UHGV virus genome: UHGV-1660455
Length of the DNA: 22,842 bases
Reading direction: 5' to 3' (one strand)
DNA from: a virus
Program-made: the position numbers and the translations under genes
In this document: positions 4,027 to 22,842 of the stretch, in pieces
Layout: each line of letters opens with the position of its first letter
Position numbering within the stretch: the first letter of the stretch is position 1
The notes under the pieces: generated by a model
What the model saw: the letters and a program-made list of their open reading frames with translations, nothing else
Told to the model about the DNA's origin: nothing
The model's database searches: none

Positions 4027-4043
4027 TGAAAGGAGGTTTTTAT

Positions 4044-6454: not shown

Positions 6455-6459
6455 AACTG

Positions 6460-9307: not shown

Positions 9308-9705
9308 GCAGTAACAGGTTCAGCGGGTTCATTACGTTCTTCACCGGGCTCAGCCTGGTCATCAGTGACCGGCGCAATCATCCCGGACAGGAGTTTCACC
9401 TTATATTCGGCTTCGGCAACAAGTTCGGTCGGCCATGTCTGCATGACCTCATCCTGAATCTGCTCCACTTCCGCCGCCGCGTTTTCTCCCTGCGATCCTT
9501 TAAGCGCGTGGCCATGCCAGAGTGACATTGCCACCAGATATGCTCCACTCTTCACGGTAAGGGTAATGGCAGCCTGAAAATCACCAGCTTCAACCGCCTC
9601 AAGTTGTTTCAGGTATTCGAGGTATTCAATACGCTGCAGCGCCGACAGCTGGAACAATGTGACGCTGCTGCCGTTACTTTCAAGCAGCTCGCTCTTTAGA
9701 AACAT
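9283..9705 (-). CDS. G: Tail assembly chaperone G
   Basis: 140-aa ORF, same length as lambda G, starting MFLK...; follows V. Confidence 0.9.
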   Translation of the reverse strand: MFLKSELLESNGSSVTLFQLSALQRIEYLEYLKQLEAVEAGDFQAAITLTVKSGAYLVAMSLWHGHALKGSQGENAAAEVEQIQDEVMQTWPTELVAEAEYKVKLLSGMIAPVTDDQAEPGEERNEPAEPVTAEKPSPVS

Positions 9706-9741
9706 AATTACTCCGGGGGAACGGGGCTTTCGCCCCGGTTA

Positions 9742-10479
9742 TCAGGAAACAGTGACTTTGCAGATCGCCACAAAGTTACCGTCATTGCTCATTACGATGA
9801 TCTCGACGGTGCCTGCCGCCACGCCGGTAACAGTCAGGGTATTGCCGCTGACGGTGACCGTTGCTTTTGACGGATCAGAACTGGCTACGCGGAAAGACTT
9901 ATCTGAAGCACTTGCTGGCAGGACAGAAACAACCAGTTGCGTCGTGGCCGCGACAGCCACAGCCGCCGTGGATTTATCCAGGCTGATCCCCGTAACGGCA
10001 ATCGGCGCGGTACCACTGTCTTCGGCCAGCGATGGTTTGCCATTGTTGGTGATTTTTGCCGTGCGGGTCATGACCTCTTTAGACGAGATGGTCTTGCCGA
10101 GACTGCTCACCCAGCCCTTAAAGACATCGACAACACCATTCGGATATTTGATTTTATACCCCTTCACGGTGCCTTCATCGAACCAGTTCACCAGGTCCTG
10201 CTGACCGGAATCCTCCGGCATCCATGCGAGCGTCAGGTTTGTTTCACCGGCTGATTTCTGCCCCTGCATCGTTGATGTCCAGTCGGCATTCTCATCATCG
10301 ATGTAGGTGTCATCTTCCGATTCAGCTGTCAGTTCTCCGGGCTGCAGGTCTTTAATCTTTGCCAGGCGCAGCCAGTCAACGTCTGAAAGCGGATTGGCGT
10401 ATGGATCACCAGTTCCGGTGTAAACCCAGAGGGTGGTACCAGCACCTTTTGTTGGTGCCAGCGGGTTTGGTGTGGCCAT
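9742..10479 (-). CDS. V: Major tail tube protein V with C-terminal Ig-like domain
   Basis: 245-aa ORF; the ...[25 protein letters not shown]... N-terminus is recognisably lambda V. Confidence 0.93.
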
Positions 10480-10486
10480 AGGGTCC

Positions 10487-10885
10487 TCACATGTCGTAAG
10501 TAATGGAATATTTCAGGTCGGCAGAACTCCACAGCGCCATATCGTCATCGCGCTGGTAGTCATAGCCCTGCTGAACCATTGTGGTGATAAGAGATTCAAG
10601 CCCCGGAACCTCTGCGAGAACCGGATACACTCTCGTCTCCATCCAGTCATCCAGATCAGAATCAGGTACCTGAGCCTCAAGAAAGACTTCGATATGCAGA
10701 ATGGCCTGCCAGCTATCGGCGTCCAGTTCTTCCCCTGTGTATTCCGCATCTGTCAGGTAGACGGCAACAGCGGGAAAATCACCCTCTTCGAGCACTGCAG
10801 GTCTGCCGTCAAAATAAATGACATCAGTACCAATCGCGCTTTCCAGCGCGTCAATAATCACCTTGCGAATATCGCTGTGTTTCAT
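10487..10885 (-). CDS. U: Tail tube terminator protein U
   Basis: 132-aa ORF with the ...[27 protein letters not shown]... motif pattern of lambda U. Confidence 0.92.
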
Positions 10886-11436
10886 CGTGTCAGAATTAAC
10901 CTGAGTTGGTTGGTAAGGGATGCCCGGAGCTCTTTGGGCATATCTGACTCCATGAGCTTCGGCAGTTCTTCTTTAAATGCCGTAGTTAATGGAGCTGCCA
11001 GCGGGATGCTGACCACTTCAATGGGGTAACGAGGTTTTGAAGTCCGCCTCATGACATGCCAGCGACCATTTTTAAGTTGCTGGATAAAGCCGCCCGGAAA
11101 ACGAAATGGCCCTATGCGAAGAACGCTGTTGGCCCCTTTCTTGTCCCGTTTTCTGCGGGAAAGTCGCACGCTTGCGGTACCGAGTTTAATGGCCGGTAAA
11201 TTTCCCCGGTTTACCCGGATAAGTGCACGAGGTCTATTGACCGTCGCACGCTTCACCCTGGCGCGTTGCTTTACCAGTTTTCGCGGTACGCGCGTATCTT
11301 TTGATACGACTGCCACGCTGCGGCTGACGGCCCGGTTTGCCACGCGGTTAACGGCCTGCGCCGATGCCCGCGGAACAGCCGTTTTGCTGATGCTGTTAAG
11401 GTTTTCTATGGCCTGTTCAAGGCCTTTTATGGACAT
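10882..11436 (-). CDS. Z: Head-tail connector / tail completion protein Z
   Basis: 184-aa basic ORF between FII and U in lambda order. Confidence 0.85.
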   Translation of the reverse strand: MSIKGLEQAIENLNSISKTAVPRASAQAVNRVANRAVSRSVAVVSKDTRVPRKLVKQRARVKRATVNRPRALIRVNRGNLPAIKLGTASVRLSRRKRDKKGANSVLRIGPFRFPGGFIQQLKNGRWHVMRRTSKPRYPIEVVSIPLAAPLTTAFKEELPKLMESDMPKELRASLTNQLRLILTR

Positions 11437-11445
11437 ATGCGCTCC

Positions 11446-11799
11446 TTAACGGCGACGCGAAGATGCAGGTGGAGAGCCGTTACCCAGACAGATATGACAG
11501 GAGCCACAGTCATCCGGACCAATACGTTCAACCCAGAATTGCCGACCGTTAATCGTCAGCGTGTCCATACGCTGCAGCTGCCTGACAGTGGCGGTTTCCA
11601 CAAACAGGGTCGGGCTGGTTCCTTCAACACGAATCCCGGCACCGGCATATCCGATATTTTCTGGATCATCGAATACACCGACCAGGGTGGCACCTGACAA
11701 AGCGCCTGACATCACCTTTGCCTCTGTGCCCATCACACCACGGATAGCGCTATCAGCTCGCGACATGGCCTCGTCAAAGAGATTATCGAAATCAGCCAT
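11446..11799 (-). CDS. FII: Head-tail joining protein FII
   Basis: 117-aa ORF, same length and position as lambda FII. Confidence 0.88.
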   Translation of the reverse strand: MADFDNLFDEAMSRADSAIRGVMGTEAKVMSGALSGATLVGVFDDPENIGYAGAGIRVEGTSPTLFVETATVRQLQRMDTLTINGRQFWVERIGPDDCGSCHICLGNGSPPASSRRR

Positions 11800-11809
11800 G
11801 TGGCCCCCT

Positions 11810-12271
11810 TCAGACTTCGAAAGCCAGCCCCTTTGCGATCAAGTCGTCGGCATCCTGTTCAGATACGCGGATAATCACACCAGGCTCTACGATAGATACC
11901 GGCTCGTTACGCGTGGCATGCAGAGCGTCAATATGCAGGGTGGCCAGCGTTTCTACTGATACCAGGTCACCCGTTGTGGCCGATTCCGTTTTTACTTTTG
12001 CCACGTTAGCAACATTGTTGTCGGTGCTGTCGGTGCTGTCGGTGCTGTCGGTGCTGTCGGAAGCATTCTGCACGCCGTTTTCACCGTCAACTGACCCGGC
12101 ATTGCCATCCAGTTCCTCTTCAAGCTCAGCAATACGCATCGTCAGTTCCTGAATGGTGCCGCTGGTACTGACCTCGCGGTTAAGCTGGGTCCCAAGTTCA
12201 TTCAGGCGGGCGACCAGCTTTTCTTTTTCTGTCATGGGAAATACTCCAGAAAGGTGGCCCGACAGGGCCAC
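11810..12271 (-). CDS. FI: DNA packaging protein FI, with an expanded (DST)n linker
   Basis: 153-aa ORF. The N-terminal ...EL.ARL.ELG.QLNR.VS..GT..EL..R.AEL.EELD... and C-terminal ...LH.DALHATR.EPV... segments are lambda FI-like; the central acidic linker holds the tandem repeat. Confidence 0.88.
   Translation of the reverse strand: MALSGHLSGVFPMTEKEKLVARLNELGTQLNREVSTSGTIQELTMRIAELEEELDGNAGSVDGENGVQNASDSTDSTDSTDSTDNNVANVAKVKTESATTGDLVSVETLATLHIDALHATRNEPVSIVEPGVIIRVSEQDADDLIAKGLAFEV
12021..12060. repeat. Perfect 9-bp tandem repeat (TCGGTGCTG, about 4.4 copies) inside FI, encoding (Asp-Ser-Thr)n on the minus strand
   Basis: Read directly: tcggtgctg x4 followed by tcgg. Confidence 0.95.
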
Positions 12272-12280
12272 TGGGGGAAG

Positions 12281-13306
12281 TTATGCCAGTTTGACGGAGA
12301 CGAATGCGTCAGGGTCTGGCAGCAGCATCAGCGGAGCTGACTGAATCATGGTGAATTCGCGCGCCGGATCCCCCGACTGCACCCAGTTTTTCGGGTAGCG
12401 TGTCGAGGCATTGATACCTTCGCGCTGGGCATCAGCATCAAGAATGCAGCCATAGGTACGCAGGCCACGAGCCTGGGTATTCCCCAGCACCATTGTCAGG
12501 TCCGGCAGATAATTCTTTTTGACGTCGTTTTCGACGTACTGGCCGGAGTACACCACGATGGCCACATCGCCAAACATCCCCTTGTATGAAACAGCCATAC
12601 CCAGGTCTTTCACGGCAGTTTCCAGCTCAGAGTTAGAACCACGACGCGTATCCAGCTTCTTCTCAACAGCCTTGAAGGAACGGAACAGCGCCCAGCCTTT
12701 CGGATCGAACACAATGATGTTGACCACACCGCTGGCGTTGAGCGCGTAGGCTTCAATGTCATCGGTCGGGTCATACGTTTCTTTGTCGCGGGTTGACCAT
12801 GCAGCCGCACCGGCCTGGACAATGTTGTTACCAGCGCTGCGGCCCATATCGACTTCAACAGGCTCGAACGCTTCCCCGGTCATGGTGTATTTACCGCTGA
12901 GCACCGCCGAAACAGCCTGTTTCTCTTCGACCTGAGCAATCGCCAGCTCTTCATCCTTCATGTTCTGAAGGATAATGCGGCGACGGCGATAGACCGGGTC
13001 AGCGAGATTCTGCGGATCCTCATCCGGCAGGCGGCGGAGAGTCATCAGTGGGTTAACTTCGTGTTTCGGCTTCACATAACCCGGCGTGAATTCAGACGTG
13101 CTGCCGCCACGGGAGCGGATCACTTTGCCGGAGACAATCGGCGAGACGTAAAGCGCCATATTGACCAGGCCAGGAATTTGCGACAGGTAAACCTTCTCTG
13201 TACTGAAGGGATAGGTTTCGCGGAAAAAGATACGCAGGAAAAGCGGATCGAATTTGAATTTCTTCTCATTGACCGCCAGCAGTTGGGCAGTGGTGTAAAC
13301 GGACAT
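12281..13306 (-). CDS. E: Major capsid protein E
   Basis: 341-aa ORF, same length as lambda E and highly similar along its whole length (MS.YTTAQLLA.NE.KFKFDPLFLR...). Confidence 0.96.
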   Translation of the reverse strand: MSVYTTAQLLAVNEKKFKFDPLFLRIFFRETYPFSTEKVYLSQIPGLVNMALYVSPIVSGKVIRSRGGSTSEFTPGYVKPKHEVNPLMTLRRLPDEDPQNLADPVYRRRRIILQNMKDEELAIAQVEEKQAVSAVLSGKYTMTGEAFEPVEVDMGRSAGNNIVQAGAAAWSTRDKETYDPTDDIEAYALNASGVVNIIVFDPKGWALFRSFKAVEKKLDTRRGSNSELETAVKDLGMAVSYKGMFGDVAIVVYSGQYVENDVKKNYLPDLTMVLGNTQARGLRTYGCILDADAQREGINASTRYPKNWVQSGDPAREFTMIQSAPLMLLPDPDAFVSVKLA

Positions 13307-13320
13307 AGATTTTTCCCGTA

Positions 13321-13344
13321 AAAAAAGCCGCGCAAGCGGCTTTT
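13321..13344 (-). terminator. Hairpin (GCCGC-GCAA-GCGGC, extendable through flanking A/T) with a U-run, between D and E
   Basis: Inverted repeat read directly; on the minus-strand RNA the stem is followed by UUUUUUU; located in a 67-bp D-E spacer. Confidence 0.5.
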
Positions 13345-13373
13345 ATGAATGATGATGGTTGTAGAAATGCGGA

Positions 13374-13706
13374 TTAAACGATGCTGATTGCAGTACCGGC
13401 GAACGCGTTACGTTTAATGTTGTCGTCGGTGACGGCAGATGGCCAGAGGACATCTTCAATACGGAAAGAGCCAGATTTGTAATATGCCAGTTCCGCGCTG
13501 TTCTGGTCTGCGGTTACAGCCAGGATGCCCATTGCCGCGCCAGCATGAGCACCATCCCAGACGGTCAGCTTGCCAGAAGTGGCATCCAGCATGAGCGGCG
13601 TCATGGCTGGAGTGGAAGCCGTCAGTTCGCCAGGACCATACGCAGTGTGCGCCGGGTCGCTGTTACCGAGCGGCTGGTTATGTGTGAAAACTTCAGTAAT
13701 TGCCAT
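13374..13706 (-). CDS. D: Head decoration protein D
   Basis: 110-aa ORF, same length as lambda D, with the conserved ...GNSDPAHTA... and ...[11 protein letters not shown]-terminus. Confidence 0.95.
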
Positions 13707-13715
13707 GATAGCCTC

Positions 13716-14981
13716 TTAAACGGGGGTGTTTAACAAATCGTCAGCGGCATCAGAAGATGCGCTACCTGCTGGGAGTGCACCGGGTGCTGTTTCCATCAAA
13801 CGATCCAGCGCCGTATCGGTACGCGCCTGGGCACTTTGCGGTGCAGCAGCCAGAATGCGCTGTGCGCTCTCTACCGTCATACCCGGCGTTTCGGCCAGTG
13901 CTCGCGCCTGTGACTCACGCCCTTTAGCCTCATCGCAGTTCAGGATGCCCATGATGCGGCTATTCTCTGCAGCTACTGCTGCAGTAACCTGCGCACTGAC
14001 ATCTACAGGGGCCGCTACGGAAGCAATGGTCGTGTCAACGGTAGTGACCTGTTCAGCTGAGGCAGTTGTCTGAGTTGCTGCCTGGTCAACTGGCTTAGTG
14101 GTCACAGCTGAAGCAGAAGGTGATGGCATAGTTCCTCCAAGGGTTGTTTTTTTGCGTCTGTCGAGTGCTTCGCGCATCACGCCGAGCGCATCGGTATTGT
14201 TAACAAGTTCATCCGCCAGTCCGTTATCCAAAGACTCCTGGCCGGAGAATACTGCCGCTTCGGTGTCCAGCACGTCCTGAACAGACATGCCGGTATAAGC
14301 GGAAACCTTTTCGGCAAACATCTGACGAGTGGCATCGATACGCGTCTGGAAATCAGCACGCACATCTTTCGGAAGCTTTTCGTAAGGGTTGCCGTCGACC
14401 TTGCGATCGCCGCTGTAAATCAGCGTGACCTCAACGCCGTTAGTTTTGAGCGCAGCGCCATAGTTGCTGTGCGCCATCATGACCCCAATGGAGCCGGTTC
14501 TGGCCGTTTGTGTGACCAGCCGTCGCGATGCCGAACTGGCTATAAGCTGCCCTGCACTGCAGTTCATGTCATTGGCCAGCGCCCAGATGGGTTTGATATC
14601 GCGCATACGGGCTATAATGTCGGCGCAGTCAAACGCCCCGGACACCATTCCACCCGGCGTATCCATATCCAGAAGAATGCCGTCAACGCCGGGGTCACTG
14701 ATTGCCTGCTGCAGGCGAGCAATGATCCCGTTGTAACCCGTCATGCCGGAATAAGGCTGAAGCGCACGGGTTTTACTGACCAGCGTGCCGGAAACCGGCA
14801 AGACCGCGATACCATTTGCCACCTGATAGCTGCGTGATGGACGGGGATCCATGTCATCATCCTCACCAAACAGCGCCAGCGGTTCGGCTATTTGTCCGGC
14901 ATCAAGCGTGATGCCAGAGACGGTATCTGTCAGCCGGGTGATGCCCAACTGGCCAGCCAGCGCGCAAATAGGCGGGTTCAA
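13716..14981 (-). CDS. C: Head maturation protease / scaffold protein C (S49 peptidase family; the 3' portion corresponds to the Nu3 scaffold frame); the 5' end appears frameshifted
   Basis: 421-aa ORF that opens on a TTG directly after an in-frame TGA. It is recognisably lambda C from ...CALAGQLG... onwards, but the first 26 C-like codons lie in another frame (next feature). Confidence 0.85.
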   Translation of the reverse strand: MNPPICALAGQLGITRLTDTVSGITLDAGQIAEPLALFGEDDDMDPRPSRSYQVANGIAVLPVSGTLVSKTRALQPYSGMTGYNGIIARLQQAISDPGVDGILLDMDTPGGMVSGAFDCADIIARMRDIKPIWALANDMNCSAGQLIASSASRRLVTQTARTGSIGVMMAHSNYGAALKTNGVEVTLIYSGDRKVDGNPYEKLPKDVRADFQTRIDATRQMFAEKVSAYTGMSVQDVLDTEAAVFSGQESLDNGLADELVNNTDALGVMREALDRRKKTTLGGTMPSPSASAVTTKPVDQAATQTTASAEQVTTVDTTIASVAAPVDVSAQVTAAVAAENSRIMGILNCDEAKGRESQARALAETPGMTVESAQRILAAAPQSAQARTDTALDRLMETAPGALPAGSASSDAADDLLNTPV

Positions 14982-15046
14982 GCATCAGCGGCTCATTAAA
15001 GGCCATACTGGCAATATGCGGAAGATTACGCAGCTCGTGCGCCATC
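14903..15046 (-). other. C: Out-of-frame 5' fragment of gene C: ATG plus 26 codons matching the lambda C N-terminus, then a frame change and premature stop
   Basis: Manual translation from the ATG at 15046 gives [26 protein letters not shown], then unrelated residues and a TGA at 14903-14905. The C homology resumes in the +1 frame at ...ICALAGQLG. Confidence 0.6.
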
Positions 15047-16618
15047 TTGCTCCTCCTCGTTTGATTTTTTCACTCCGGCCTCAAAAGCTGCAGCGGCCCA
15101 TGCCGGTGGTTTCAGACCCGCAGCACGACGCTCCATGGTTTCCCGGACCTGCTGGGCAAAAATCTCCTGATAATCATCACCGCGTTTGGCGCACTCTTTT
15201 TCATACGTGCTGAGACCTGCCTCAATGAGCATGACGGCCTCCTGTACCTCTTTCAGCCCGTCAATTGCCATTCGACCAGAGCCAATCCAGTTGGCATTCC
15301 CCCAGGCTGTTCTCGCCTCCTGGAAACTGAACCGGGCTTTCGAAGGAAGCGTGACCACGCGGCGGACAATCGCCTCTTCAAGCCAGCAAAGAAACATCTG
15401 ACAGGCCTGTCGGGATGCCACAAACTTGCGACGCCCCATAAAGTACGCCCAGGACTCGTTAGCACTTGCGCGTGCGGTCGAGTAGCTCATCTGCGAATAG
15501 TTTCGCGAAAGCTGCTCATACGACACACCAAGCCCAGCGGCAATATAACGCAGCAGGGACTGTTCAAAAGTCGAGTAGCCGTTATCGGTATCCTGCGCCG
15601 ACTGAAGGTTGAGAGAATCACCCGGCAACAGGTGTGGAACCCTTGCCCCACCCAGGCGAACAGGCGCAGCTGAGTAATAGGACGCCATTTCACCGAGCCA
15701 GCCCGTAAGTTTGCTCTGCTGCTCTTTATTATCCGCGCCGAGAATAAAGTCCATCGCCGATTGGGTATCCAGTTCACTCTCGATGGTAGCGGCATACATA
15801 GCCTTCACTATCGCGCTCTGGAGCTGGGTATTTTGCAGGGTATCGAGCATTTTCATCTGCTCCATCACGCTGTAAAACGCATTGGCCCCACGGGTCTGTC
15901 CATCCTCCATCGGTTCGAATACATGGATAAATGAAGGTCGACCGCCGGGTAGTTCGCGAGGAATGTAGGTCCAGTTCTGCGCCATCCAGCCGGGATAACC
16001 ATCGTCGCTGACGTAATATCCCAGCGCAGCACCGCTATCATTTATTTTCACACCGGCGCGACAGTTCCGGGTATCACCGATATTATTCGGATTGCTGACG
16101 CGCTTCGGACTGACCATTTTGAACTGAGTACGGAAAAGACGCGTTGAATCGCTGTCCCAGGTCGCCTGCGTGCATAATTCACCGTTAAACGCGTGCATGG
16201 CCACACCTTCTCGGATCATCATCGTAAACGTTCGCTTACGCTCGGCATCAATCCCGCAAAAGTCGTCCTCGGCATACTCATTCCATGCAGCTTCCACATC
16301 CCGCGAGAATGCCCGTGAATCCTCCTCATTTATTCCCAGATAACGCCAGCTTGGTCGATAACTGAGTCTGAAAAATGACCCGACGATGTGGTCCTGGTGG
16401 AGCTGCACGGCGTTTGCCGCGTAGCCATTATTTCGCACCAGATCGTCAGCGCGGGCATTTCCGCGAGAATAGTTGGGTAGGAGTGCGGCATCTGCACTTT
16501 CACTCGGCGGATTCCAGCCTCGCAGCTGCCCACCAAACCCGCCTCCACCGCCATGATATCCTGCGTATTCCCGAAGGGATGTTTTCCCGTCAGGTCCCAC
16601 CAAAGATGGTATTTTCAT
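15026..16618 (-). CDS. B: Portal protein B
   Basis: 530-aa ORF highly similar to lambda B over its length. Confidence 0.96.
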
Positions 16619-16821
16619 ACGTAAAACCCTGCTGGCCCCCGGCGTCGTGATGTGGTGCCAACCTGAGATTCAAGGTCAGCAATATATTTTTTGAGATCGC
16701 TGACTGAAGTGGCTGTAAATTCCACTCTTCGACCGTCTTTCTGTACCGTCGCCACGCGCTTTCCCATCATCAGGTCATGTAACGCAGCGCGCGCGGCATC
16801 CAGTTCAGTCTGTGTTGCCAT
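16615..16821 (-). CDS. W: Head-tail joining / DNA stabilisation protein W
   Basis: 68-aa ORF, same length as lambda W, with the conserved ...[31 protein letters not shown]... core. Confidence 0.93.
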
Positions 16822-18743
16822 TATTCATCTCCAGATAATGCCCGCGCGTAATCCGCCAGGGTCTTGTTATTGTTACGGCTGCCTTCTTCCTCCAGCAGGC
16901 TGGCCAGAAGTGAATCAAGATTTAGCTGCCAGCGGGATATGCTTATACGCAGCGCCGCCAGTGCATAAACAAAGCAATCGAGCGCCTCATTTCGTCGTTT
17001 TTTGCTGTCCCAGACGATCTTTTTCTTTCCGTCTACCCATTTTTCCACCTGCTCTTCAGCTGTTAGTTGTTGGGCCTCTGTTAGATCGTAGATTTCTGGG
17101 TTATTCGGGAAATGAACCGCTCCCGCCAGCGGCTCGTCTCTTTGCGCCACCAGCGTGAAACGGTTATAAATCTGCTCTTTTGCGGTGTCTGTTCCTACCT
17201 CTGTGAGGTAAACACCATTCTTGTTACGCTTGCGTGGCATGTTCGCCACTGGCTTTCCATAAACCGACGCCCCCTTTATAGGGATCACACGAAACAGACC
17301 GTGTTTTTTTGAGCGGTTGTAGACGATGGTGGGATCAATGCCGCCAATATCCCAGCAAGTGCGGGATATAACCATTTCGAGACCGTTCTGGCGCTTATAC
17401 GTCCTGTTGATCGCTTCATCAACTCGAGCGAGAGTCGACTCATCATCATGACGACCCATAATGATAATTTTGTCGATAAGCCAGCTTTCCTCTCCCGGCC
17501 CCCATCCCCAAACACGCATTTCGTAACGGTCAAGCTGGGAGTCAATACCCGCTGTCAGATATGCCACTCGCTCCGGCACAGACGCTTCAAAGTGCTCTTT
17601 TCGTTCCGCTAAAACTTCAGCATCGGGTCGCTCACCTATTTTCGGTTCCCACGTTTCGCCCAGGGTCGTGTTAACGAAAGTTTTTCGCTTACCCGTATCA
17701 CCTTTTGTTTTTATCCAGTCCTTGACGATCTGCACCCAGGTTGTGAACGGGCTATATGCGGTCCAGATGTGGAATGTAACGCTATCAGGAGGTTCAATTT
17801 CGGTACCGGATGAAGAAAACCAGTTAAGGCCGTCTCGTGTCCAGATACCTGTTTCATCACAAATATACCTGGCCTCCAGAAATTCCAGCTCCTGTTGTTT
17901 AATCACACAGGCATTGTGTTCACAGAGGTAGTAAACGCTGGCAGGTTCTCCCGGAGACCATTTGAAGCCAAATGGTGTCTCTTTATCACCGAATTTCAGA
18001 TACTGCTCTTCCCCACAGTGTGGGCATGGAACATGGAACCGAAGAAAATGTTCAGACTCCTTAGCAGCTCTTTCTATCTGGCACGTACCTTTGACTTTCG
18101 GTGTAGATCCGCGAATGGATTTCGGCCATACAGAACCCTCAATACGCTTATCACCCAGAAAGGTGGGAGAACCTTCTTTCTCGATGTCATCATCGAAAGC
18201 GGCGAGCTCGTCGTAGCCAGCCACATCAACTGATTTTTCACGGTAGTTTTTTGCAGCCTTACCGCCCAGGCACCAGAAACCACGACCATTCGAGAAACGC
18301 TTCATGCTCAGCGTATTGTCCCGGTGTTTTTTACCGTACCAGGGAGCAAGCGCCAGCAACGTCGGAATATCACGAATGGTCGGTTCTACATGAGACTTCA
18401 TGAAGTTTTCAGCATCACCGTCGGTTGGTAACCATATTAGGGAGTTACGCTGTTTATGTTGGATGAAATATGCGTAAACGCCGAGCAACATTTTTGAGTA
18501 GCCGACACGAGCCGATTTAACGACATTCACCTCGCGAATATAGTCATTACCCATCGCATTCATAATTGCACGCTGAAATGGCAGTGTTTCCCAGCGCCCT
18601 TCCTGGTAGGCAGACTCTTTCGGGAGATAATAATTCTCATCTGCCCATTCAACTGCTGTTTGCGGTTGCGGCCGGTACAGCGAACGTAACCCCGCCCGCG
18701 CAGAGTGCTGCAGCCCCTTAACCTGACTGTTCGATATATTCAC
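16821..18743 (-). CDS. A: Terminase large subunit A (gpA; ATPase/endonuclease)
   Basis: 640-aa ORF near-colinear with lambda gpA (MNISNSQV... N-terminus; Walker and nuclease regions conserved). Confidence 0.97.
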
Positions 18744-19263
18744 TCAGCAACCCCGGTATCATTTCATCCAGCGCAGCTGCCTTGTTCATGGCCTTAATGA
18801 TGTCCTTCTTGAGGAAATCAATATGTCGGTTCTCCAGCTCCGGGAAGCGCCGCTGAACCGACAGAGGTATTCCATCGAGAATGCTGGCGATTTCTCCGGC
18901 TACCCGCGACAGCACGAACGTGCAGAATGCGGTCTCCACCACTTCAGCGGACTCTTTTGCATTTTTTAATTCCTGAGCGTCAGCCTGAGCTCGCGTAAGT
19001 CGGTGTCGCTCATATTCAATCGTGCCAGGTTGAAGATCGGACTCAGAAGCGATACGGAGATCTTCAACTTCCTTCCGCAACTTTTCATTTTCTATAGCTG
19101 CATCGCGCGCACTGTACCATTCGATTGCAGCAGCAGATTCAAAGAGAACCTCATTACCTTTGCCACCACCGCGGACAACCGGCATACCTTGCTCCTGCCA
19201 GTTCTGAATCGTTCGGACGCTTACCCCGAAAATTTCGGATAAGCGTTTTTTGTTAACCTCCAT
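18718..19263 (-). CDS. Nu1: Terminase small subunit Nu1
   Basis: 181-aa ORF, same length as lambda Nu1; N-terminal winged-helix region MEVNKK...IRTIQNWQEQGMPV.RGGGKGNEVL... essentially as in lambda. Confidence 0.96.
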   Translation of the reverse strand: MEVNKKRLSEIFGVSVRTIQNWQEQGMPVVRGGGKGNEVLFESAAAIEWYSARDAAIENEKLRKEVEDLRIASESDLQPGTIEYERHRLTRAQADAQELKNAKESAEVVETAFCTFVLSRVAGEIASILDGIPLSVQRRFPELENRHIDFLKKDIIKAMNKAAALDEMIPGLLSEYIEQSG

Positions 19264-19438
19264 GGCTTACTCCTGGCAAAAAACAGAGAAAGGAAACAAT
19301 CAACGGTAAACTTCCGTTTTCCTTGCTCAGCATTTCCTTTCTGGAGAGAGGACGTTTTTAACAAAAACAATGAGTAAACAAGAAGAAGAACGGAAATGGC
19401 ATAAACCAGAAAATTTTCATAAATAGCGAGAATCTGCG

Positions 19439-19450
19439 CGGACGCCGCCC
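19439..19450 (-). other. cos: cosN cohesive-end site (predicted 12-nt overhang 5'-GGGCGGCGTCCG-3' on the phage l-strand), with cosQ-like and cosB-like flanks
   Basis: The revcomp of 19400-19500 aligns by eye with the lambda right-end/left-end junction (...GTTACG|GGGCGGCG....|CGCTATTTATGAAAATTTTC.GG...), about 180 bp upstream of Nu1. Confidence 0.75.
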
Positions 19451-19511
19451 CGTAACAGGCCGGATCGCCGGAAAGGACCCGCAAACGATATTAATTATCA
19501 TTTGCATATCA

Positions 19512-20186
19512 TCATCGACGGCACTGCTGCCAGATAACACCACCGGGGAGACATTCCATCATGATGGCCGTGCGGACATAGGAAGCCAGTTCATCCATCG
19601 CTTTCTTGTCTGCTGCCATTTGCTTTGCAACATCCAGATCCGCACATTCAGCAGTATTTTTCAGCGCGTTATCAAGCACCGCTTCGAGATTGGTATCAAC
19701 GCCAGAGTTAACTTCAAATTTGTCGGCGCTGATGGTTACCTTGTTCTGTACTGGCTCATCACGCAGGATACCAAGGCTGATGTTGTAGACTTTGGTCACC
19801 GACTGAGGCTTTTCTAATTCGGCGGCGCGGATAGAACCACCAGCGATATTGGCTTCCTTGATGAATACCTCACCGTTCTTCACAACAAATGGTGAGGTAT
19901 CAATCTCAACGCCAAGCGTCATCGAAGCGCAATATTGCTGCTTACCAAAACGCGTATTGACCAGGTGTTCAACGGCAAATTTCTGCCCTTCTGATGTCAG
20001 AAAGGTAAAGTGATTTTCTTTCTGGTATTCGGTTGCTGTATGTCTGGTTTCAGCAAAGCCAAACTCGCGCAATTCAGCGGCACCAGATTTAGACGGCAGG
20101 TCACCTGACAGCAACGCGCCACGGAAAAAGAGCGAATACAGAACATCCGTCGCCGCACCGGATAACGTAATGATTTTCTGACCCAT
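19512..20186 (-). CDS. Conserved lambdoid-phage protein of unknown function, encoded just upstream of cos
   Basis: 224-aa ORF with an AAAGGAAA ribosome-binding site. It resembles proteins found at the right end of lambdoid genomes, but my recollection of the exact family is uncertain. Confidence 0.6.
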   Translation of the reverse strand: MGQKIITLSGAATDVLYSLFFRGALLSGDLPSKSGAAELREFGFAETRHTATEYQKENHFTFLTSEGQKFAVEHLVNTRFGKQQYCASMTLGVEIDTSPFVVKNGEVFIKEANIAGGSIRAAELEKPQSVTKVYNISLGILRDEPVQNKVTISADKFEVNSGVDTNLEAVLDNALKNTAECADLDVAKQMAADKKAMDELASYVRTAIMMECLPGGVIWQQCRR

Positions 20187-20446
20187 TATTTATTTCCTTT
20201 TAGGCGTGAGCCTGTCGCACGGCAAAGCCGCCGAAAGTTAACGGTTTGCCCAGGCTCACAGCTGAAAGACTTTCTTTGATGTGCGCGTGCGATGCGCATA
20301 AATGCCGCGCGATGCGGTTACTGTCTGAATATCAGGGTATTACTTCGTTTTAACCCCGGGTAAGGTAAGCATTCAGCCCGTCAGTGGTGGGACACTGATT
20401 CACGCAAAGAGGAGGAATGGCTGAATAACTCTTCGAAGGAAAAAGG

Positions 20447-20911
20447 ATGATCACCAAAGTAAAAATCAAGTTTATTTCCCCTATTGATGGATCGGTATCA
20501 GATACCCCCACGGAGCATGCAATTCCCGTAGTTCCATTGACAGTATGGCCAAGTAGCTCAAAAGATATAAACGTTTATAAACCAAATGGATTGAAGGCTG
20601 GTGCCTACGCACTTATAGATACCGGAGCAGATCTTTGCTATGTGGATTCAGACTTTGCTGACGATTTAAAACTCCCAATCGCGGAAAAAACAACTGTGAG
20701 CGGAGCCACCTCAACAATAGAAACTACAGTTCGGCATGCGGTAATATCGTTCACTGAGGACGAAAGAGTTTTTTCAACAGAATTGACTTCAGTGCCATTG
20801 GTAAGTAACGGGAGAAAATTCCAAGTCGTTTTCGGAATGCAACTAATTAAAATGGGCGCCCTTACGATGGATTTTTCCAATCAAGTATTTGAGTTAACAT
20901 TTTTTAACTAA
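20447..20911 (+). CDS. Retropepsin-like (clan AA) aspartic protease, 154 aa; AT-rich moron gene on the strand opposite the late operon
   Basis: ORF with a good Shine-Dalgarno (AAGGAAAAAGG-ATG) and the canonical aspartic-protease signature hydrophobic-hydrophobic-D-T-G-A (..YALIDTGADLCYVD..). Markedly lower GC than the flanking phage genes. Confidence 0.75.
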   Translation: MITKVKIKFISPIDGSVSDTPTEHAIPVVPLTVWPSSSKDINVYKPNGLKAGAYALIDTGADLCYVDSDFADDLKLPIAEKTTVSGATSTIETTVRHAVISFTEDERVFSTELTSVPLVSNGRKFQVVFGMQLIKMGALTMDFSNQVFELTFFN

Positions 20912-21055
20912 CCCCCCAGGGATACCTCCCTCTTTTGCAAGACTGGATAAGGGCATTGCTTTTGCTGTTTTCCTAGAATCGGTACCAGAATTGAGTTGCG
21001 ATTTAATGTCTTTTAATTCGCTCTCAATTCTCTTTACACGTTCAGCTAAAGTCAT
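20894..21055 (-). CDS. Small hypothetical protein (53 aa, N-terminal predicted helix ERVKRIESELKDIKSQL), convergent with and overlapping the 3' end of the protease gene
   Basis: Hand-translated; absent from the ORF track because it is under 60 aa. Strong ribosome-binding site (AAGAGG, 6 nt before the ATG). Same low-GC module. Confidence 0.35.
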   Translation of the reverse strand: MTLAERVKRIESELKDIKSQLNSGTDSRKTAKAMPLSSLAKEGGIPGGLVKKC

Positions 21056-21176
21056 GATTGCCTCTTAATAATCGCTTAACATCTACAAAGCCTTCCCGAA
21101 GACAATACATACCATTATCAAGCCCACCAGCAGGTGAGCTTTGTAATGGAAAGCCGTTGTGAAAGTGGCTCTCAAA

Positions 21177-21194
21177 AACCACAGATTTGTGGTT
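21177..21194 (-). terminator. Weak hairpin (AACCACA-GATT-TGTGGTT) with a U-run on the minus-strand RNA, at the 3' end of the Rha-like gene
   Basis: 7-bp inverted repeat overlapping the stop codon by 2 nt; followed on the minus-strand RNA by UUUUGAG. Confidence 0.35.
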
Positions 21195-21879
21195 ATGCGG
21201 CCAAGCGGTGCTGCTCTTCGATAAGTGGCTGGCGGTGATTACGCTCGAACATGCCGCGCAGCACTTCTTTGCGTTGTTCGAAGTCCCACCCCATGCTGAT
21301 GAATACCGTGTTGGCGCGCTGTAGCTCGGTGATGCAGTGAATTTGTTCCGGCGTCAGGTAATCGCGGATCGGCTCTTTCTTCCCGATTTCGTGATGCACG
21401 CGGAACTTGGCCGCCGTCATGCCCAGCGCCAGTCGGTTAATCAGGTCAGCTTCGTTGCTGAAGTGATGCGGGGCGATCTGCTTACCCTGCGCCTCACGCT
21501 CATGCTTGATGGCATCGGTCATAGGCTTGTACTCCAGACGCGCCGAGTTGCGATCCATCTTCTTCTTCGCCAGCGCGCTGCGCATAGTGAAGAATTCATA
21601 TACCAAGCGCTTTTTGAATTCACGCACAACTTCATTGTTTCGCATGTAGGTGATCAACAGCGTGGTTTGCTGTTCGTTTAGCAGTGCTATTTCCTGCTTC
21701 TGCATGCCCCCATCCGTTTGAAAGGGTCGCATTTCAAATTCCACCCTTCCGAATTCTTCGAGGTCGCTTTTGTACTTCCTGATGAGTTGAATCACTGGCT
21801 TGTGATCCTTCATAACACCACTGGCGATCACTGCCGAGTTGGTGACCAGGTCTAGCTTCTTGATTTCTACTAATTGCAT
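21193..21879 (-). CDS. rha: Phage regulatory protein of the Rha family (antirepressor-like)
   Basis: The N-terminus ..LVTNSAVIASGVMKDHKPVIQLIRK.. fits the Rha-domain pattern (T.SS..IA...GK.H..V.R.IR). The tracked ORF runs to 21963, but the Met at 21879 has a plausible ribosome-binding site and begins the conserved domain. Confidence 0.7.
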   Translation of the reverse strand: MQLVEIKKLDLVTNSAVIASGVMKDHKPVIQLIRKYKSDLEEFGRVEFEMRPFQTDGGMQKQEIALLNEQQTTLLITYMRNNEVVREFKKRLVYEFFTMRSALAKKKMDRNSARLEYKPMTDAIKHEREAQGKQIAPHHFSNEADLINRLALGMTAAKFRVHHEIGKKEPIRDYLTPEQIHCITELQRANTVFISMGWDFEQRKEVLRGMFERNHRQPLIEEQHRLAA

Positions 21880-22032
21880 GGCGTGTACCTTTCTTTGAGA
21901 TGAACCTTTGCCGCACAGGAAATCAGCCCGTCGAGGCTCGCCAGCACTAACTGACTTCCTCAAAGGCTCATTTCAAAGGGTATGGTTCGACGTGGGTTGA
22001 ATGCGCTGCGGTGCGCGGTGAAATTCTGGCAT

Positions 22033-22057
22033 AAAAAAGCCCGACCGAAGTCAGGCT
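22033..22057 (-). terminator. Intrinsic terminator after Rz/Rz1 (stem AGCCUGAC / GUCGGGCU, UUCG loop, then UUUUUUAU on the minus-strand RNA)
   Basis: 8-bp stem with one G-U pair and a UUCG tetraloop followed by a U6 run; lies 20 nt beyond the Rz stop. Confidence 0.65.
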
Positions 22058-22076
22058 CTGTTATTTGGGTAACGAA

Positions 22077-22535
22077 TCATTTAAGACACTGCTCTTTGAT
22101 GTATTCCTGCAAATATCCAACCTGTTTCGTCACTGTGACGATTCGCTCTCTGAGGGTGAAATAATCCCGTTCAGCGGAGTCAGTAAGTCGGGGGCCGGTA
22201 ACATCGCCCAGGCCGCCGGTGCTGGTCGTTCCGTTCGCGGGACAGTTTGCGTTGAGCTGCAGCCGCTTACGGCCAGCAATGACATCGCTATGCAGACGCT
22301 CAATGGTTTCTTTCGCATCAGCCAGTTCTCCGGTGTATTTGGCATCCAGTGCAGCGACATCACGCTGGCGGGTCTGCATGTCTTTAATGGTGGCGGTCGC
22401 CAGGAGGAGTTTCTCAGTGGCCTTATCGCGCTGGTCTCTGTAAGTGATGGCGTTGTCGCGGTAGTGGTTCACGAAGAAATTAACGCCAGCACCAGCAACT
22501 GCAGCCAGTAACGCTTAACCAGTGCGCTAATCATG
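22077..22535 (-). CDS. Rz: Rz inner-membrane spanin subunit (i-spanin); the N-terminal transmembrane region appears interrupted by a frameshift
   Basis: The ..[28 protein letters not shown].. periplasmic domain is lambda Rz-like. The ATG at 22533-22535 overlaps the lysozyme stop but is in a different frame from the body of the gene. Confidence 0.85.
22130..22318 (-). CDS. Rz1: Rz1 outer-membrane lipoprotein spanin subunit (o-spanin), embedded in the +1 frame of Rz
   Basis: Lipobox LLAVSG|C followed by a Pro-rich segment ..[26 protein letters not shown].., closely resembling lambda Rz1; wholly nested inside Rz. Confidence 0.85.
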
Positions 22536-22842
22536 ACAGGAACAGAGCTCGCTCTGCCTTGCGGCGATTCGTGAGCCCCGGCATCACCTTTCCGCCTGAT
22601 TTATTCCAGCGCAGAAATTCATCTGCCGCGCCTTTTATATCGCCAGCATTCAGCTTTTTCAGCAGTGTAGATGTGGAAAGAGCACGCGACCCAACGTTGT
22701 AAGCGAACGACACCAGTGCGTCGAACTGGCCTTGTGTCAGCTTCACCCTGACAACTTTCAGCACGTCATTCTCATAACCAACAAGCCCTGTTTTCAGAAG
22801 CCTGTCAGCGGTTTGCTGGTCGATAGTCATACCGCGCTTTAC
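22531..22842 (-). CDS. Endolysin, P22 gp19 / T4 lysozyme-like (GH24 family); 3' part only, the 5' end lies beyond the window
   Basis: The C-terminus ...[11 protein letters not shown] and preceding ..QGQFDALVSFAYNVG.. match P22-type lysozymes, not the lambda R transglycosylase. The frame is open to the window edge. Confidence 0.85.
   Translation of the reverse strand, partial: VKRGMTIDQQTADRLLKTGLVGYENDVLKVVRVKLTQGQFDALVSFAYNVGSRALSTSTLLKKLNAGDIKGAADEFLRWNKSGGKVMPGLTNRRKAERALFLS

What the first reader, a model, noticed from the sequence alone, without database searches (positions are those of the whole stretch)
21193..22057. Rha-family regulator inserted in the late region and bracketed by terminators
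Between the Rz terminator (22033-22057) and the moron lies a gene whose N-terminus fits the Rha-domain pattern. Rha-like and antirepressor-like genes are accessory in lambdoid phages and can affect the lysis/lysogeny decision or host range (phi80 Rha blocks growth in IHF-defective hosts). A strong terminator upstream and a weak one downstream suggest an independently regulated unit.
Basis: partly seen in the sequence, partly recalled or inferred. Interest (0 to 1): 0.4.

Follow-up and report, generated by a model that had tools for sequence, protein, structure and literature searches.

The report
Rha gene behind a conserved RNA leader
The gene is an ordinary, already annotated Rha-family phage DNA-binding protein sitting where phi80 and P22 keep theirs, but it is preceded by a widely conserved, structured RNA leader that is absent from Rfam, whose P22 counterpart is the uncharacterised small RNA P22F, and that heads many different accessory genes in related phages.

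Summary
Window 21193-21879 (- strand, 228 aa, ATG at 21879) encodes a Rha-family protein (Pfam PF09669, 66 bits). It is 99% identical to the annotated "transcriptional regulator" of Salmonella phage SPN9CC. It lies after Rz, as rha does in phi80 and P22.

A good intrinsic terminator (22033-22057) precedes it, and a weak hairpin overlaps its stop codon.

The "independent unit" reading is only partly supported. No sigma-70-like promoter was found. The upstream terminator belongs to the lysis module and also occurs in a prophage that lacks rha.

The 21880-22020 interval is a conserved, structured leader: a small hairpin plus a roughly 97-nt interrupted hairpin. Its base pairs a CCUUU-type element with the Shine-Dalgarno sequence.

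A covariance model finds a second copy at 20184-20301, in front of the next gene. In 104 of 105 collected copies the match ends exactly at the ATG of an ORF. These ORFs fall into about 24 protein clusters (KilA-N, Rha, P22_AR_N, HNH-AP2, unknowns).

Covariation is strong in two data sets. The P22 counterpart is the 89-nt sncRNA "P22F" (2026), whose function is unknown.

Most likely reading: a late-operon accessory cassette transcribed by Q-antiterminated read-through and controlled post-transcriptionally by its leader.

The parts
22031..22064 (-). Intrinsic terminator directly after the Rz stop codon (TGA 22079-22077). GC-rich core 22039-22056, UUCG loop 22046-22049, U-run 22033-22038. It belongs to the lysis module, not to rha.
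   Evidence: Fold -17.1 kcal/mol, z = -3.0. An equivalent hairpin plus T-run follows Rz in Oslo, SPN9CC, phi80, P22 and the rha-less MS 115-1 prophage. Window 22024-22842 matches MS 115-1 at 86%.
21880..22020 (-). Conserved structured 5' leader (copy 1, sequence type A). It comprises the small hairpin P1 (GCGC-ACCGCA-GCGC, 22003-22016) and a long interrupted hairpin (21886-21982). The base of the long hairpin pairs UACC/CCCUUUGA with the SD region. The SD AAAGGU lies at 21892-21887. The counterpart of P22 sncRNA P22F lies at 21891-21972.
   Evidence: CM R1 hit 21877-22010, 55.4 bits, E 1.8e-12. MFE -46.2 kcal/mol, z = -2.5. Alignment to 11 phages, all ending at the same ATG. Covariation. P22F aligns at 74/82 positions. 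No Rfam family matches.
21193..21879 (-). rha: a 228-aa Rha-family protein. The N-terminal Rha domain covers residues ~10-100. The C-terminal domain of ~120 aa has no Pfam family.
   Evidence: Pfam PF09669 at 66.2 bits. phrog_2657 at 1.2e-85. 225/228 identical to SPN9CC gp45. 697 homologues, mostly named 'Rha family transcriptional regulator', across Enterobacterales. AF2 N-domain pLDDT 70-89. C-terminal residues 87-214 hit PADLOC PDC-S22 at 3.3e-15.
21172..21194 (-). Weak terminator-like hairpin overlapping the rha stop codon (AACCACA-AAUC-UGUGGUU, then UUUGAGAG). It is part of the rha module.
   Evidence: The same sequence follows the gene in phage Oslo.
21112..21149 (-). Strong hairpin without a U-run (CCAUU..AAGCUCACC-UGCU-GGUGGGCUU..AAUGG). 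It marks the 3' boundary of the exchangeable module.
   Evidence: Fold (fourth sequence). The homology to Oslo/SPN9CC ends at 21112. The same 38 bp (97%) follow a different 66-aa gene in MS 115-1. It is found in 8 of 351 fetched loci, after different alleles.
20187..20301 (-). Second copy of the leader (phi80-like type with a shortened apical part). It ends at the ATG of the next - strand gene.
   Evidence: CM R1 hit 20184-20301, 70.7 bits, E 8e-17. The fold pairs UCUUU with the SD AAAGG, -45.1 kcal/mol.
19512..20186 (-). 224-aa ORF headed by leader copy 2. It is the last gene before cos/Nu1. Function unknown.
   Evidence: phrog_17079 at 2e-127, unknown function. Pfam Phage_Tail_Tip at 31.5 bits over residues 97-141. 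Syntenic with a 243-aa hypothetical gene of the phi80 prophage.
22077..22472 (-). Rz spanin gene with embedded Rz1 (22130-22363). It is the upstream neighbour that fixes the position of the cassette in the late operon.
   Evidence: Pfam Phage_lysis at 146 bits. phrog_13 Rz-like spanin.

Best explanation
The locus is a late-operon accessory cassette of a phi80/N15-type lambdoid phage.

The gene encodes a Rha-family protein. It has an N-terminal DNA-binding domain of the Rha/KilA-N/Bro 'domain-swapping' network and an uncharacterised C-terminal domain.

The gene has no promoter of its own. It is reached only by Q-modified RNA polymerase coming from the late promoter. That polymerase reads through the intrinsic terminator placed just after Rz, whereas ordinary transcription stops there.

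Expression is then set after transcription by a conserved 5' leader of about 140 nt. A long interrupted hairpin ends at the ribosome-binding site and pairs a conserved CCUUU-type element with the Shine-Dalgarno sequence. This should keep translation low until the hairpin is opened or cut. The hairpin survives as a discrete small RNA, seen in P22 as P22F.

The same leader heads a second gene 1.6 kb downstream and many unrelated accessory genes in other phages. It is therefore a generic 'cassette head'. It also provides the homology at which alleles are swapped: here a type-A leader is joined at about the ATG to an rha allele that carries a type-B leader in Salmonella phages.

Shown: gene identity, position, terminator, lack of a consensus promoter, and the existence, conservation and covariation of the leader.

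Inferred: read-through transcription, translational repression, and the nature of the factor that relieves it.
For: Identity:
- Pfam and PHROG hits.
- 99% identity to the annotated SPN9CC protein.
- 697 homologues.

Position:
- The order Rz, terminator, rha is the same in phi80, P22, and Oslo and SPN9CC.
- In those phages a Q gene lies upstream of the lysis genes.
- All window genes from the lysozyme to J are co-oriented.

No promoter:
- 0 sigma-70-like sites against 3.8 expected.

Terminator:
- Fold.
- 91 of 105 leaders have a T-run within 70 nt upstream.

Leader:
- It is 72-90% conserved in at least 86 phage records, upstream of different genes.
- The alignment diverges immediately after a shared ATG.
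- 104 of 105 CM matches end at an ATG followed by an ORF. These ORFs fall into about 24 protein clusters.

Covariation, 105 viral-contig copies:
- 91.1% of cells paired, against 79.1% in shuffles (0/500).
- 30 of 38 pairs carry compensatory changes, against 18.7 in shuffles (0/500).
- Covariation score 0.341, against 0.142 in shuffles and at most 0.064 when partners are slid.

Covariation, replication on 40 sequences from one genome per species:
- 91.6% paired against 77.8% in shuffles; score 0.410 against 0.177.

Covariation, sequence-only MAFFT alignment:
- 99% paired against 88% in shuffles.

Strand:
- Conserved G-U pairs.
- Much lower reverse-strand CM scores, 21-30 bits against 46-164.
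- Both point to RNA of the sense strand.

SD pairing:
- Outer helix 95-98% paired, with variants CCUUA/UAAGG and UCUUU/AAAGG.
- MFE folds pair the SD in all four leader types.

Transcript evidence:
- P22F is an 89-nt RNA whose 3' end lies 6 nt from the rha start. It reaches 926 and 2054 RPM in infected cells and OMVs (PMC13397905).
- It aligns to window 21972-21891 at 74/82.

Recombination joint:
- Homology to Oslo/SPN9CC runs over 21112-21920 only. The leader types differ upstream of that.
Against: - No transcript data exist for this phage. The window does not contain Q or the late promoter.
- The promoter scan covers only sigma-70 consensus sites.
- The thermodynamic SD-occlusion measure is not discriminating. 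The SD GG pairing probability is 0.99 here. It is 0.80 on average for other genes of the window and 0.85 for shuffled leaders, and 18% of shuffles reach the observed value.
- SD pairing therefore rests on a few covarying sequences plus conservation of the CCUUU element.
- In type-A leaders such as this one, the SD helix is only 4 bp beyond an AAA bulge.
- The CM-based alignments are fitted to the model structure, which inflates pair counts.
- A stable hairpin can accumulate merely as a decay intermediate.
- The molecular function of the Rha protein is unknown. The structure model is of low confidence (pLDDT 63.7) and gave no significant fold match.
Confidence: 0.6

Rival explanations
1. Independent moron. 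In this reading rha is an autonomous transcription unit with its own promoter in 21880-22032. It is insulated by terminators on both sides and is possibly expressed in the lysogen.
For: There is a terminator upstream and a weak one downstream. The gene is accessory and exchangeable. From memory, unverified: the phi80 literature discusses IHF-dependent control of rha.
Against: No sigma-70-like site was found. The interval is occupied by a covarying RNA structure with no conserved -10/-35-like element. The upstream terminator is present whether or not rha is present. The leader RNA is detected during lytic P22 infection.
Confidence: 0.12
2. The leader is only a DNA-level recombination linker: conserved homology that lets cassettes be swapped. 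In this reading it has no RNA function.
For: The mosaic joint lies at about the ATG. The same leader precedes about 24 unrelated ORF clusters. Cassettes occur in tandem.
Against: Compensatory base changes keep pairing across leader types that differ in sequence. A linker needs identity, not complementarity. Conserved G-U pairs and strand-specific CM scores also argue against it. The two roles are not exclusive.
Confidence: 0.15
3. The hairpin is mainly the precursor of a trans-acting small RNA (P22F-like). That RNA would act on other transcripts or be exported in vesicles, rather than act as a cis regulator of rha.
For: P22F accumulates as a discrete 89-nt RNA and is enriched in OMVs. Its authors suggest an IsrK-like role.
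Against: No target is known. The element is always fixed at the same distance from a start codon, with 104/105 copies ending at an ATG, which is typical of cis elements. Sequence types differ greatly while the structure is kept, which is unlike seed-based sRNAs.
Confidence: 0.2
4. The hairpin is an RNase III or RNase E processing and stability site. It would separate the lysis mRNA from downstream messages or stabilise the 5' end of the cassette mRNA, without occluding the ribosome-binding site.
For: There are about 45 nearly continuous base pairs. A processed product has been observed. The SD-occlusion statistic is not above background.
Against: This is my own reading of the structure, not a tool result: the reported P22F ends are not the 2-nt staggered ends expected of a simple RNase III cut across the helix. 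Conservation of the CCUUU element opposite the SD is not explained.
Confidence: 0.3
5. The protein is a defence or exclusion factor rather than a transcriptional regulator of the phage's own development.
For: The C-terminal domain matches the PADLOC candidate PDC-S22 at 3.3e-15. The cited paper titles describe Rha of phi80/P22 as inhibitory to phage growth in IHF mutants.
Against: PDC-S22 is only a candidate, and I found no experimental report on it. No promoter for expression in the lysogen was found.
Confidence: 0.15

Closest known systems
rha of coliphage phi80 and rha/orf201 of Salmonella phage P22 (Henthorn & Friedman 1995, known to me by title and reference lists only)
   Same: Both carry the Pfam Phage_pRha N-terminal domain. 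Both lie directly after Rz/Rz1 and its terminator, before the packaging genes. Both are preceded by the same leader family.
   Different: There is no BLASTP-detectable similarity to phi80 Rha (E 0.4). The C-terminal domains differ: P22 Rha carries ORF11CD3, phi80 Rha has no recognised domain, and this protein has a 120-aa domain without a Pfam family. The IHF phenotype was not tested for this allele.
The 228-aa 'transcriptional regulator' of Salmonella phages SPN9CC (YP_006383884) and vB_SosS_Oslo (YP_006560884)
   Same: The SPN9CC protein is 99% identical to the window protein (225/228). At the DNA level the rha module is 96% (Oslo) and 91% (SPN9CC) identical to the window. The position after Rz is the same. 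The stop-codon hairpin and the 3' boundary hairpin are also the same.
   Different: Those phages carry the type-B leader and a different Rz and terminator. The window carries a type-A leader and an E. coli-type lysis module.
P22F small non-coding RNA (PMC13397905, 2026)
   Same: It corresponds to the long leader hairpin. It aligns at 74/82 identity to window 21972-21891. It lies in the same position, with its 3' end 6 nt from the rha ATG.
   Different: It was reported only as an RNA-seq species of P22 with unresolved function. That paper does not describe its family-wide conservation, its covariation, its link to many different downstream genes, or the SD pairing.
Leader and immunity RNAs next to Bro-network/antirepressor genes: IsrK (Gifsy-1), C4 (P1/P7), CI (P4)
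   Same: These are structured RNAs just upstream of, or inside, antirepressor-like genes that control their expression. P22F's authors and the HE-PICI paper draw this parallel.
   Different: There is no Rfam match to isrK, C4 or any other family for the hairpin. No antisense partner or complementary target site was identified.
SD-sequestering or processed phage leaders: Mu com/mom, the lambda N-leader RNase III site, lambda cIII (established knowledge, not tested here)
   Same: A stable hairpin ends at the ribosome-binding site of a potentially harmful gene. In those systems expression needs a factor or a cleavage.
   Different: No activator or nuclease has been identified here, and there is no sequence relationship.
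Morons of lambdoid phages (promoter, gene and terminator units such as lambda bor)
   Same: It is an accessory gene added between core modules, with terminator-like elements nearby.
   Different: No promoter was found. It is co-oriented with the late operon and headed by a leader rather than a promoter.

Membership tests
Phage_pRha (Pfam PF09669) protein family | Match to the family HMM at or above the curated gathering score | tested here: met
   66.2 bits against a cut-off of 29.9, residues 13-100, profile positions 1-90 of 91.
TIGR02681 phage_pRha (NCBIfam subfamily model) | Score at or above the curated cut-off | tested here: not met
   27.9 bits against a cut-off of 45.95, E 2e-06. It is a divergent member of the wider Pfam family, not of this subfamily model.
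rha genes in the phi80/P22 sense | Location in the late region directly downstream of Rz/Rz1 and upstream of the packaging genes | tested here: met
   The window order is lysozyme, Rz/Rz1, terminator, rha, then further genes and Nu1. The order is the same in phi80 and P22.
rha genes in the phi80/P22 sense | The product inhibits phage growth in IHF-defective hosts, and expression is influenced by IHF | not testable with these tools
   This needs plating on himA/hip hosts. The only exact IHF consensus site in the window is at 20879-20891, not at rha. The original paper was not readable.
Moron (autonomous promoter, gene and terminator unit) | Own promoter upstream of the gene | tested here: not met
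   0 sigma-70-like sites in 19000-22842. The interval is a structured leader. The scan is limited to consensus sigma-70 sites.
Moron (autonomous promoter, gene and terminator unit) | Terminator downstream of the gene | tested here: inconclusive
   There is a 7-bp AU-rich hairpin with a short U-run at the stop codon, and a strong hairpin without a U-run at 21112-21149.
Intrinsic terminator (22033-22057) | GC-rich stem-loop followed by a U-run on the transcribed strand | tested here: met
   10-bp stem, UUCG loop, six U's, -17.1 kcal/mol, z = -3.0.
   21877-22010, 55.4 bits, E 1.8e-12, and 20184-20301, 70.7 bits, E 8e-17. Both end at an ATG. There were no other window hits.
   Observed values exceed all 500 shuffles for percentage paired and covariation score in all three alignments, and for the count of compensated pairs in the two CM-fitted alignments (7 observed against 6.1 in shuffles, 148/500 reaching it, in the MAFFT-only alignment). 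They also exceed all slid controls in all three.
   The outer helix is 95-98% paired with a few compensated variants. However, the pairing-probability statistic is matched by other genes (0.80) and by shuffles (0.85).
Rfam families isrK, C4 and other described phage leader/immunity RNAs | Match to the family covariance model | tested here: not met
   There are no hits at E <= 1 over 19000-22842. At E <= 10 only the terminator gives weak generic matches. Nothing is found in the phi80, P22 or Oslo loci at gathering score.

The most novel reading that the evidence does not exclude
The leader may be a previously undescribed family of cis-regulatory RNA, a universal 'cassette head' for late-region accessory genes of enterobacterial lambdoid and P22-like phages.

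In this reading it would do three things. It would keep potentially toxic Rha/KilA-N/Ant-type and other accessory genes translationally silent until a specific phage or host factor (an RNase III-type cleavage, an RNA-binding activator, or the P22F-like fragment itself) opens the SD-sequestering hairpin. It would serve as the homology at which cassettes are exchanged. It would also release a stable small RNA. The old, unexplained IHF-dependent toxicity of Rha might be mediated through this element.
Probability: 0.3. Interest if true: 0.65.

Novelty: new member of a known kind. Interest (0 to 1): 0.42.

Why it matters
The Rha gene itself adds nothing new. It is a near-identical copy of an annotated phage gene in a known position.

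What matters is the element in front of it. It is a strongly covarying RNA structure that is absent from Rfam. Its type-A form alone occurs in 954 of 5426 complete E. coli genomes, and the family occurs across Enterobacterales. It always ends at the start codon of an accessory gene.

This gives three things:
- A concrete, testable handle on how lambdoid phages control the enigmatic Rha/KilA-N/Bro-network genes.
- An evolutionary context and a likely cis role for the uncharacterised P22 sncRNA P22F.
- A practical annotation rule: the conserved ATG corrects start codons that several records place inside the leader.

Tried and rejected
- **Own promoter.** The consensus scan found none. Reading the conserved leader columns by eye showed no conserved -10/-35-like element.
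- **IHF site at rha.** The only exact WATCAANNNNTTR site in the window is elsewhere, and its count is no more than chance.
- **Original rha paper.** PMID 7768817 / PMC177009 is not held. What I say about the IHF phenotype rests on titles and citing papers and on memory.
- **Known RNA family.** Rfam gave nothing for the hairpin.
- **Protein fold.** The AF2 model is poor (pLDDT 63.7). Foldseek against the PDB gave no hit below E 0.001. The best hits are winged-helix proteins at E 0.04-1. A PDB sequence search gave nothing.
- **SD occlusion by pairing probability.** Rejected as evidence after the control.
- **Sequence-only alignment across leader types.** MAFFT misaligned types B and C and gave a spurious consensus structure. 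I therefore built a CM from five phi80-type leaders with a hand-checked structure.
- **Leader as coding sequence or N-terminal extension.** Rejected. Sequences diverge right after the shared ATG, and the in-frame upstream starts used by some annotators are not conserved.
- **Conserved uORF, K-turn, CsrA GGA sites.** I considered these by eye. None holds across all four leader types.
- **PDC-S22.** There is no functional literature.
- **Genome-wide pattern scan.** About 60 of the 98 pattern hits were chance matches in unrelated taxa, as my back-of-envelope estimate predicted. Only CM-confirmed hits were used.
Full report
**1. The observation**

The region holds one convincing gene on the - strand. 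The mechanical ORF runs 21193..21963 from a TTG. The start used by relatives is the ATG at 21879, which gives 228 aa. It is preceded by AAAGGT at 21892-21887.

Pfam Phage_pRha matches residues 13-100 at 66.2 bits against a cut-off of 29.9. PHROG phrog_2657, 'transcriptional regulator', covers the whole length at 1.2e-85. The narrower NCBIfam model TIGR02681 is below its cut-off, at 27.9 against 45.95.

The element at 22033-22057 is a good intrinsic terminator on the - strand. It has a 10-bp stem, a UUCG loop and six U's, and folds at -17.1 kcal/mol with z = -3.0. The consensus scan missed it. I think this is because the stem can extend into the U-run, but I did not test that.

The 'weak' downstream terminator is a 7-bp AU-rich hairpin at 21177-21194 that overlaps the TAA stop.

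**2. What the gene is**

The protein is 225/228 identical to the annotated 'transcriptional regulator' of Salmonella phage SPN9CC. The DNA of 21112-21920 is 96% identical to phage vB_SosS_Oslo and 91% to SPN9CC.

A database search returned 697 relatives, mostly named 'Rha family transcriptional regulator'. They come from Salmonella, Serratia, Enterobacter, Citrobacter, Yersinia, Cronobacter, Klebsiella and others.

An AlphaFold model built from a shallow alignment is mediocre, with pLDDT 63.7. The N-terminal domain scores 70-89 and has a beta-beta-alpha-alpha-alpha-beta-beta-alpha arrangement. The C-terminal half is unreliable. Foldseek against the PDB gave nothing significant. The top non-significant hits are winged-helix proteins.

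The C-terminal part, residues 87-214, matches the PADLOC candidate PDC-S22 at 3.3e-15. I found no functional information on that candidate.

**3. Context**

The window is the right end plus the virion module of a phi80/N15-type lambdoid phage. Positions 1424-19263 are 98.5% identical to coliphage mEp237, whose record starts at cos.

On the - strand the order is:
- lysozyme, Rz/Rz1, terminator, rha
- a 53-aa ORF
- an aspartic-protease-like ORF on the + strand
- a 224-aa ORF
- cos, Nu1, A, and on to J

The phi80 prophage of DH5alpha has the same layout, with its own 172-aa rha after Rz. P22 has rha after gene 15/Rz1. Oslo and SPN9CC do likewise, with a Q gene upstream of the lysis genes.

'Rha in the late region after Rz' is thus the classical arrangement, not an unusual insertion.

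The slot is polymorphic. The E. coli MS 115-1 prophage shares the Rz gene and terminator (86% identity, window 22024-22842). It then carries a 66-aa gene directly after the terminator, with no rha. A terminator follows Rz in every compared phage. The strong terminator is therefore a feature of the lysis module, not a bracket of rha.

**4. No promoter, but a conserved leader**

The sigma-70 scan found no promoter-like site in 19000-22842, where 3.8 were expected by chance.

The stretch between the terminator and the ATG is instead conserved at 72-90% in at least 86 phage records, in front of different genes. These include P22 rha, phi80 rha, KilA-N genes of Stx2 phage 1717 and HK544, an HNH-AP2 gene of Klebsiella phage RothD (there between the tRNAs and the holin), and genes of ES18, Ss-VASD, Hafnia and Erwinia phages.

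In the alignment all copies end at the same ATG, and the sequences diverge immediately after it. The stretch is therefore non-coding. Several records start the CDS inside it. Examples are P22 rha at 201 aa against 178 aa from the shared ATG, and the 251-aa forms.

Four sequence types exist:
- A: the window, P22, ES18 and Stx phages
- B: Oslo, SPN9CC and most IMG/VR hits
- C: phi80
- D: an Erwinia phage

The window combines a type-A leader with the rha allele that carries a type-B leader in Salmonella phages. A recombination joint therefore lies at about the ATG.

**5. Structure of the leader**

Each type folds into two parts:
- a small hairpin, GCGC-loop-GCGC
- a long interrupted hairpin of about 45 bp

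The long hairpin has a conserved asymmetric internal loop (A opposite UGUGNGR) and a conserved apical YGGYGR loop. It ends at the ribosome-binding site.

Sequence-only alignment across the types failed in part. I therefore built a covariance model from five phi80-type leaders with a hand-checked structure and searched representative loci.

On 105 matches from viral contigs and phage records:
- 91.1% of cells are paired, against 79.1% in shuffles (0/500).
- 30 of 38 pairs carry compensatory changes, against 18.7 in shuffles (0/500).
- The covariation score is 0.341, against 0.142 in shuffles and at most 0.064 when partners are slid.

The result was replicated on 40 distinct sequences from one genome per species. 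There 91.6% are paired against 77.8%, and the score is 0.410 against 0.177 in shuffles and at most 0.092 when slid.

For the inner helices a MAFFT-only alignment gives 99% paired against 88%, and 0.379 against 0.167. In that alignment the count of compensated pairs was not above shuffles (7 observed against 6.1, 148/500), and its structure came from RNAalifold on the same alignment.

CM-fitted alignments lean towards the model structure, so these numbers are upper estimates. The slid controls and the independent data sets nevertheless agree.

Conserved G-U pairs, and reverse-strand scores of only 21-30 bits against 46-164 bits, indicate RNA of the sense strand.

No Rfam family matches the hairpin.

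**6. A second copy, and what follows the leader**

The model finds exactly two hits in the window. One is 21877-22010, before rha. The other is 20184-20301, at 70.7 bits and E 8e-17, ending at the ATG of the 224-aa ORF. The two copies share almost no primary sequence.

Several other loci also hold two cassettes.

In 104 of 105 matches the model ends at an ATG that opens an ORF. About 24 protein clusters follow:
- KilA-N alone
- KilA-N with ORF11CD3 or P63C
- Phage_pRha with or without ORF11CD3
- P22_AR_N with ORF11CD3
- HNH_3 with AP2
- a predicted membrane protein
- several proteins of unknown function

Most belong to the domain-swapping 'Bro network'.

91 of 105 leaders have a T-run within 70 nt upstream.

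The type-A leader alone occurs at 1200 places in 954 of 5426 complete E. coli genomes, under Rha or KilA-N annotations. CM-confirmed hits span Enterobacterales: Pantoea, Erwinia, Tatumella, Brenneria, Serratia, Raoultella, Citrobacter, Cedecea and others.

**7. Experimental echo**

A full-text search for leader sequence strings found one paper, PMC13397905 (Noncoding RNA, June 2026). It reports ten P22 small RNAs from sRNA-seq.

One of them, 'P22F', is 89 nt long and lies at P22 21,301-21,389. Its 3' end is 6 nt from the rha start. It reaches 926 RPM in infected cytosol and 2054 RPM in OMVs. Its function is unresolved, and the authors suggest an IsrK-like role.

It aligns to window 21972-21891 at 74/82. 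This shows that the leader is transcribed during lytic growth of P22, and that the hairpin persists as a discrete RNA.

**8. How it most likely works**

Transcription is inferred from architecture and from established lambdoid biology. Q-modified polymerase from the late promoter ignores the post-Rz terminator, and other transcription is stopped there.

Post-transcriptional control is inferred from the anatomy of the leader. A conserved CCUUU-type element at the 5' base pairs with the SD:
- Types B, C and D: CCUUU with AAAGG.
- Variants: CCUUA with UAAGG, and UCUUU with AAAGG.
- Type A, as here: CC or UACC with GG or GGUA, across an AAA bulge, next to CUUUGA with UCAAAG.

This would keep translation of Rha, which is harmful in some hosts according to the cited titles, low until the hairpin is opened or cut.

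My attempt to quantify SD occlusion failed its control. The pairing probability is 0.98-0.99 for leaders. It is 0.80 for other genes and 0.85 for shuffled leaders.

The translational gate is therefore a hypothesis supported by conservation and a few compensated variants. It is not demonstrated.

The rivals are an RNase processing or stability site, a trans-acting sRNA precursor, and a pure recombination linker. They are listed with their tests. Several are compatible with each other.

**9. Verdict**

The 'independently regulated unit bracketed by terminators' is not supported as stated.

The Rha gene is already known. The leader is a new, well-supported member of a known kind, a structured 5' leader. 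Until now it has been noticed only as an anonymous RNA-seq species in P22.

Noticed in passing
window 20184-20301 (-) and 19512-20186 (-): There is a second copy of the conserved leader (70.7 bits) directly in front of the 224-aa ORF, the last gene before cos. The ORF matches phrog_17079 (unknown function) and has a short Phage_Tail_Tip-like segment. The two leader copies in the window share almost no primary sequence.
   Followed up: partly
window 20447-20911 (+): This is the only + strand gene in the region. It encodes a 154-aa protein that matches clan-AA (retropepsin-like) aspartic protease models just above the Pfam cut-off (Asp_protease_2, 26.7 against 24.3 bits). It has no PHROG or PADLOC hit. 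phi80 and MS 115-1 carry a different + strand gene at this place.
   Followed up: no
window 20894-21055 (-): A 53-aa ORF with a good SD (AAGAGG) lies downstream of rha. It has no family hit. Its 3' end overlaps the end of the convergent protease-like ORF.
   Followed up: no
window 21112-21149 (-): A strong 9-bp hairpin without a U-run marks the 3' end of the exchangeable rha module. The same element follows other rha alleles and an unrelated 66-aa gene in other prophages (8 of 351 fetched loci).
   Followed up: partly
L005 (P22, AB426868) 1875-2480; proteins P0009, P0019, P0026, P0031 and others: Start codons are annotated inside the leader. P22 rha is given as 201 aa, and some homologues of the window protein as 251 aa. 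The ATG shared by 104 of 105 leaders, and the position of P22F, imply 178 aa and 228 aa respectively.
   Followed up: partly
window 21193-21879 (-), residues 87-214: The C-terminal domain of the Rha protein matches the PADLOC 'phage defence candidate' PDC-S22 at 3.3e-15. The same C-terminal domain is joined to a different Rha N-domain in Enterobacter phage vB_Ecl_MII_001 (L013).
   Followed up: partly
L133 812-945 and 2139-2271; L260 3515-3648 and 4842-4974; L295 4642-4759 and 5672-5808; L322; L039; L008; L176: These loci hold two leader-plus-ORF cassettes on the same strand, sometimes back to back. The arrangement is reminiscent of a cassette array.
   Followed up: partly
window 22032-22074 (-): At permissive thresholds the post-Rz terminator gives weak, sub-threshold Rfam matches to the 3' ends of sRNAs (isrJ, AgvB at 14.6 bits against a gathering score of 56, istR and others). 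These are probably generic terminator similarity only.
   Followed up: no
window 20879-20891 (+): This is the only exact match to the IHF consensus WATCAANNNNTTR in the whole window. It lies at the end of the protease-like ORF, and the count is no more than chance.
   Followed up: no
L321, L275, L311, L277 (genome contigs): Leader copies scoring 52-162 bits occur in MAGs labelled Collinsella, Cellvibrionaceae, Bacillota and Nanosynbacter; the Collinsella and Cellvibrionaceae copies score as high (161-162 bits) as the best enterobacterial ones. These are probably mis-binned or contaminating enterobacterial phage contigs.
   Followed up: no
window 1424-19263: The virion and packaging module is 98.5% identical to coliphage mEp237 (91-95% to HK225 and N15). 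The match ends at the position where those records start (cos, about window 19264). The lysis and accessory end is mosaic, with parts related to E. coli prophages and to Salmonella phages.
   Followed up: partly
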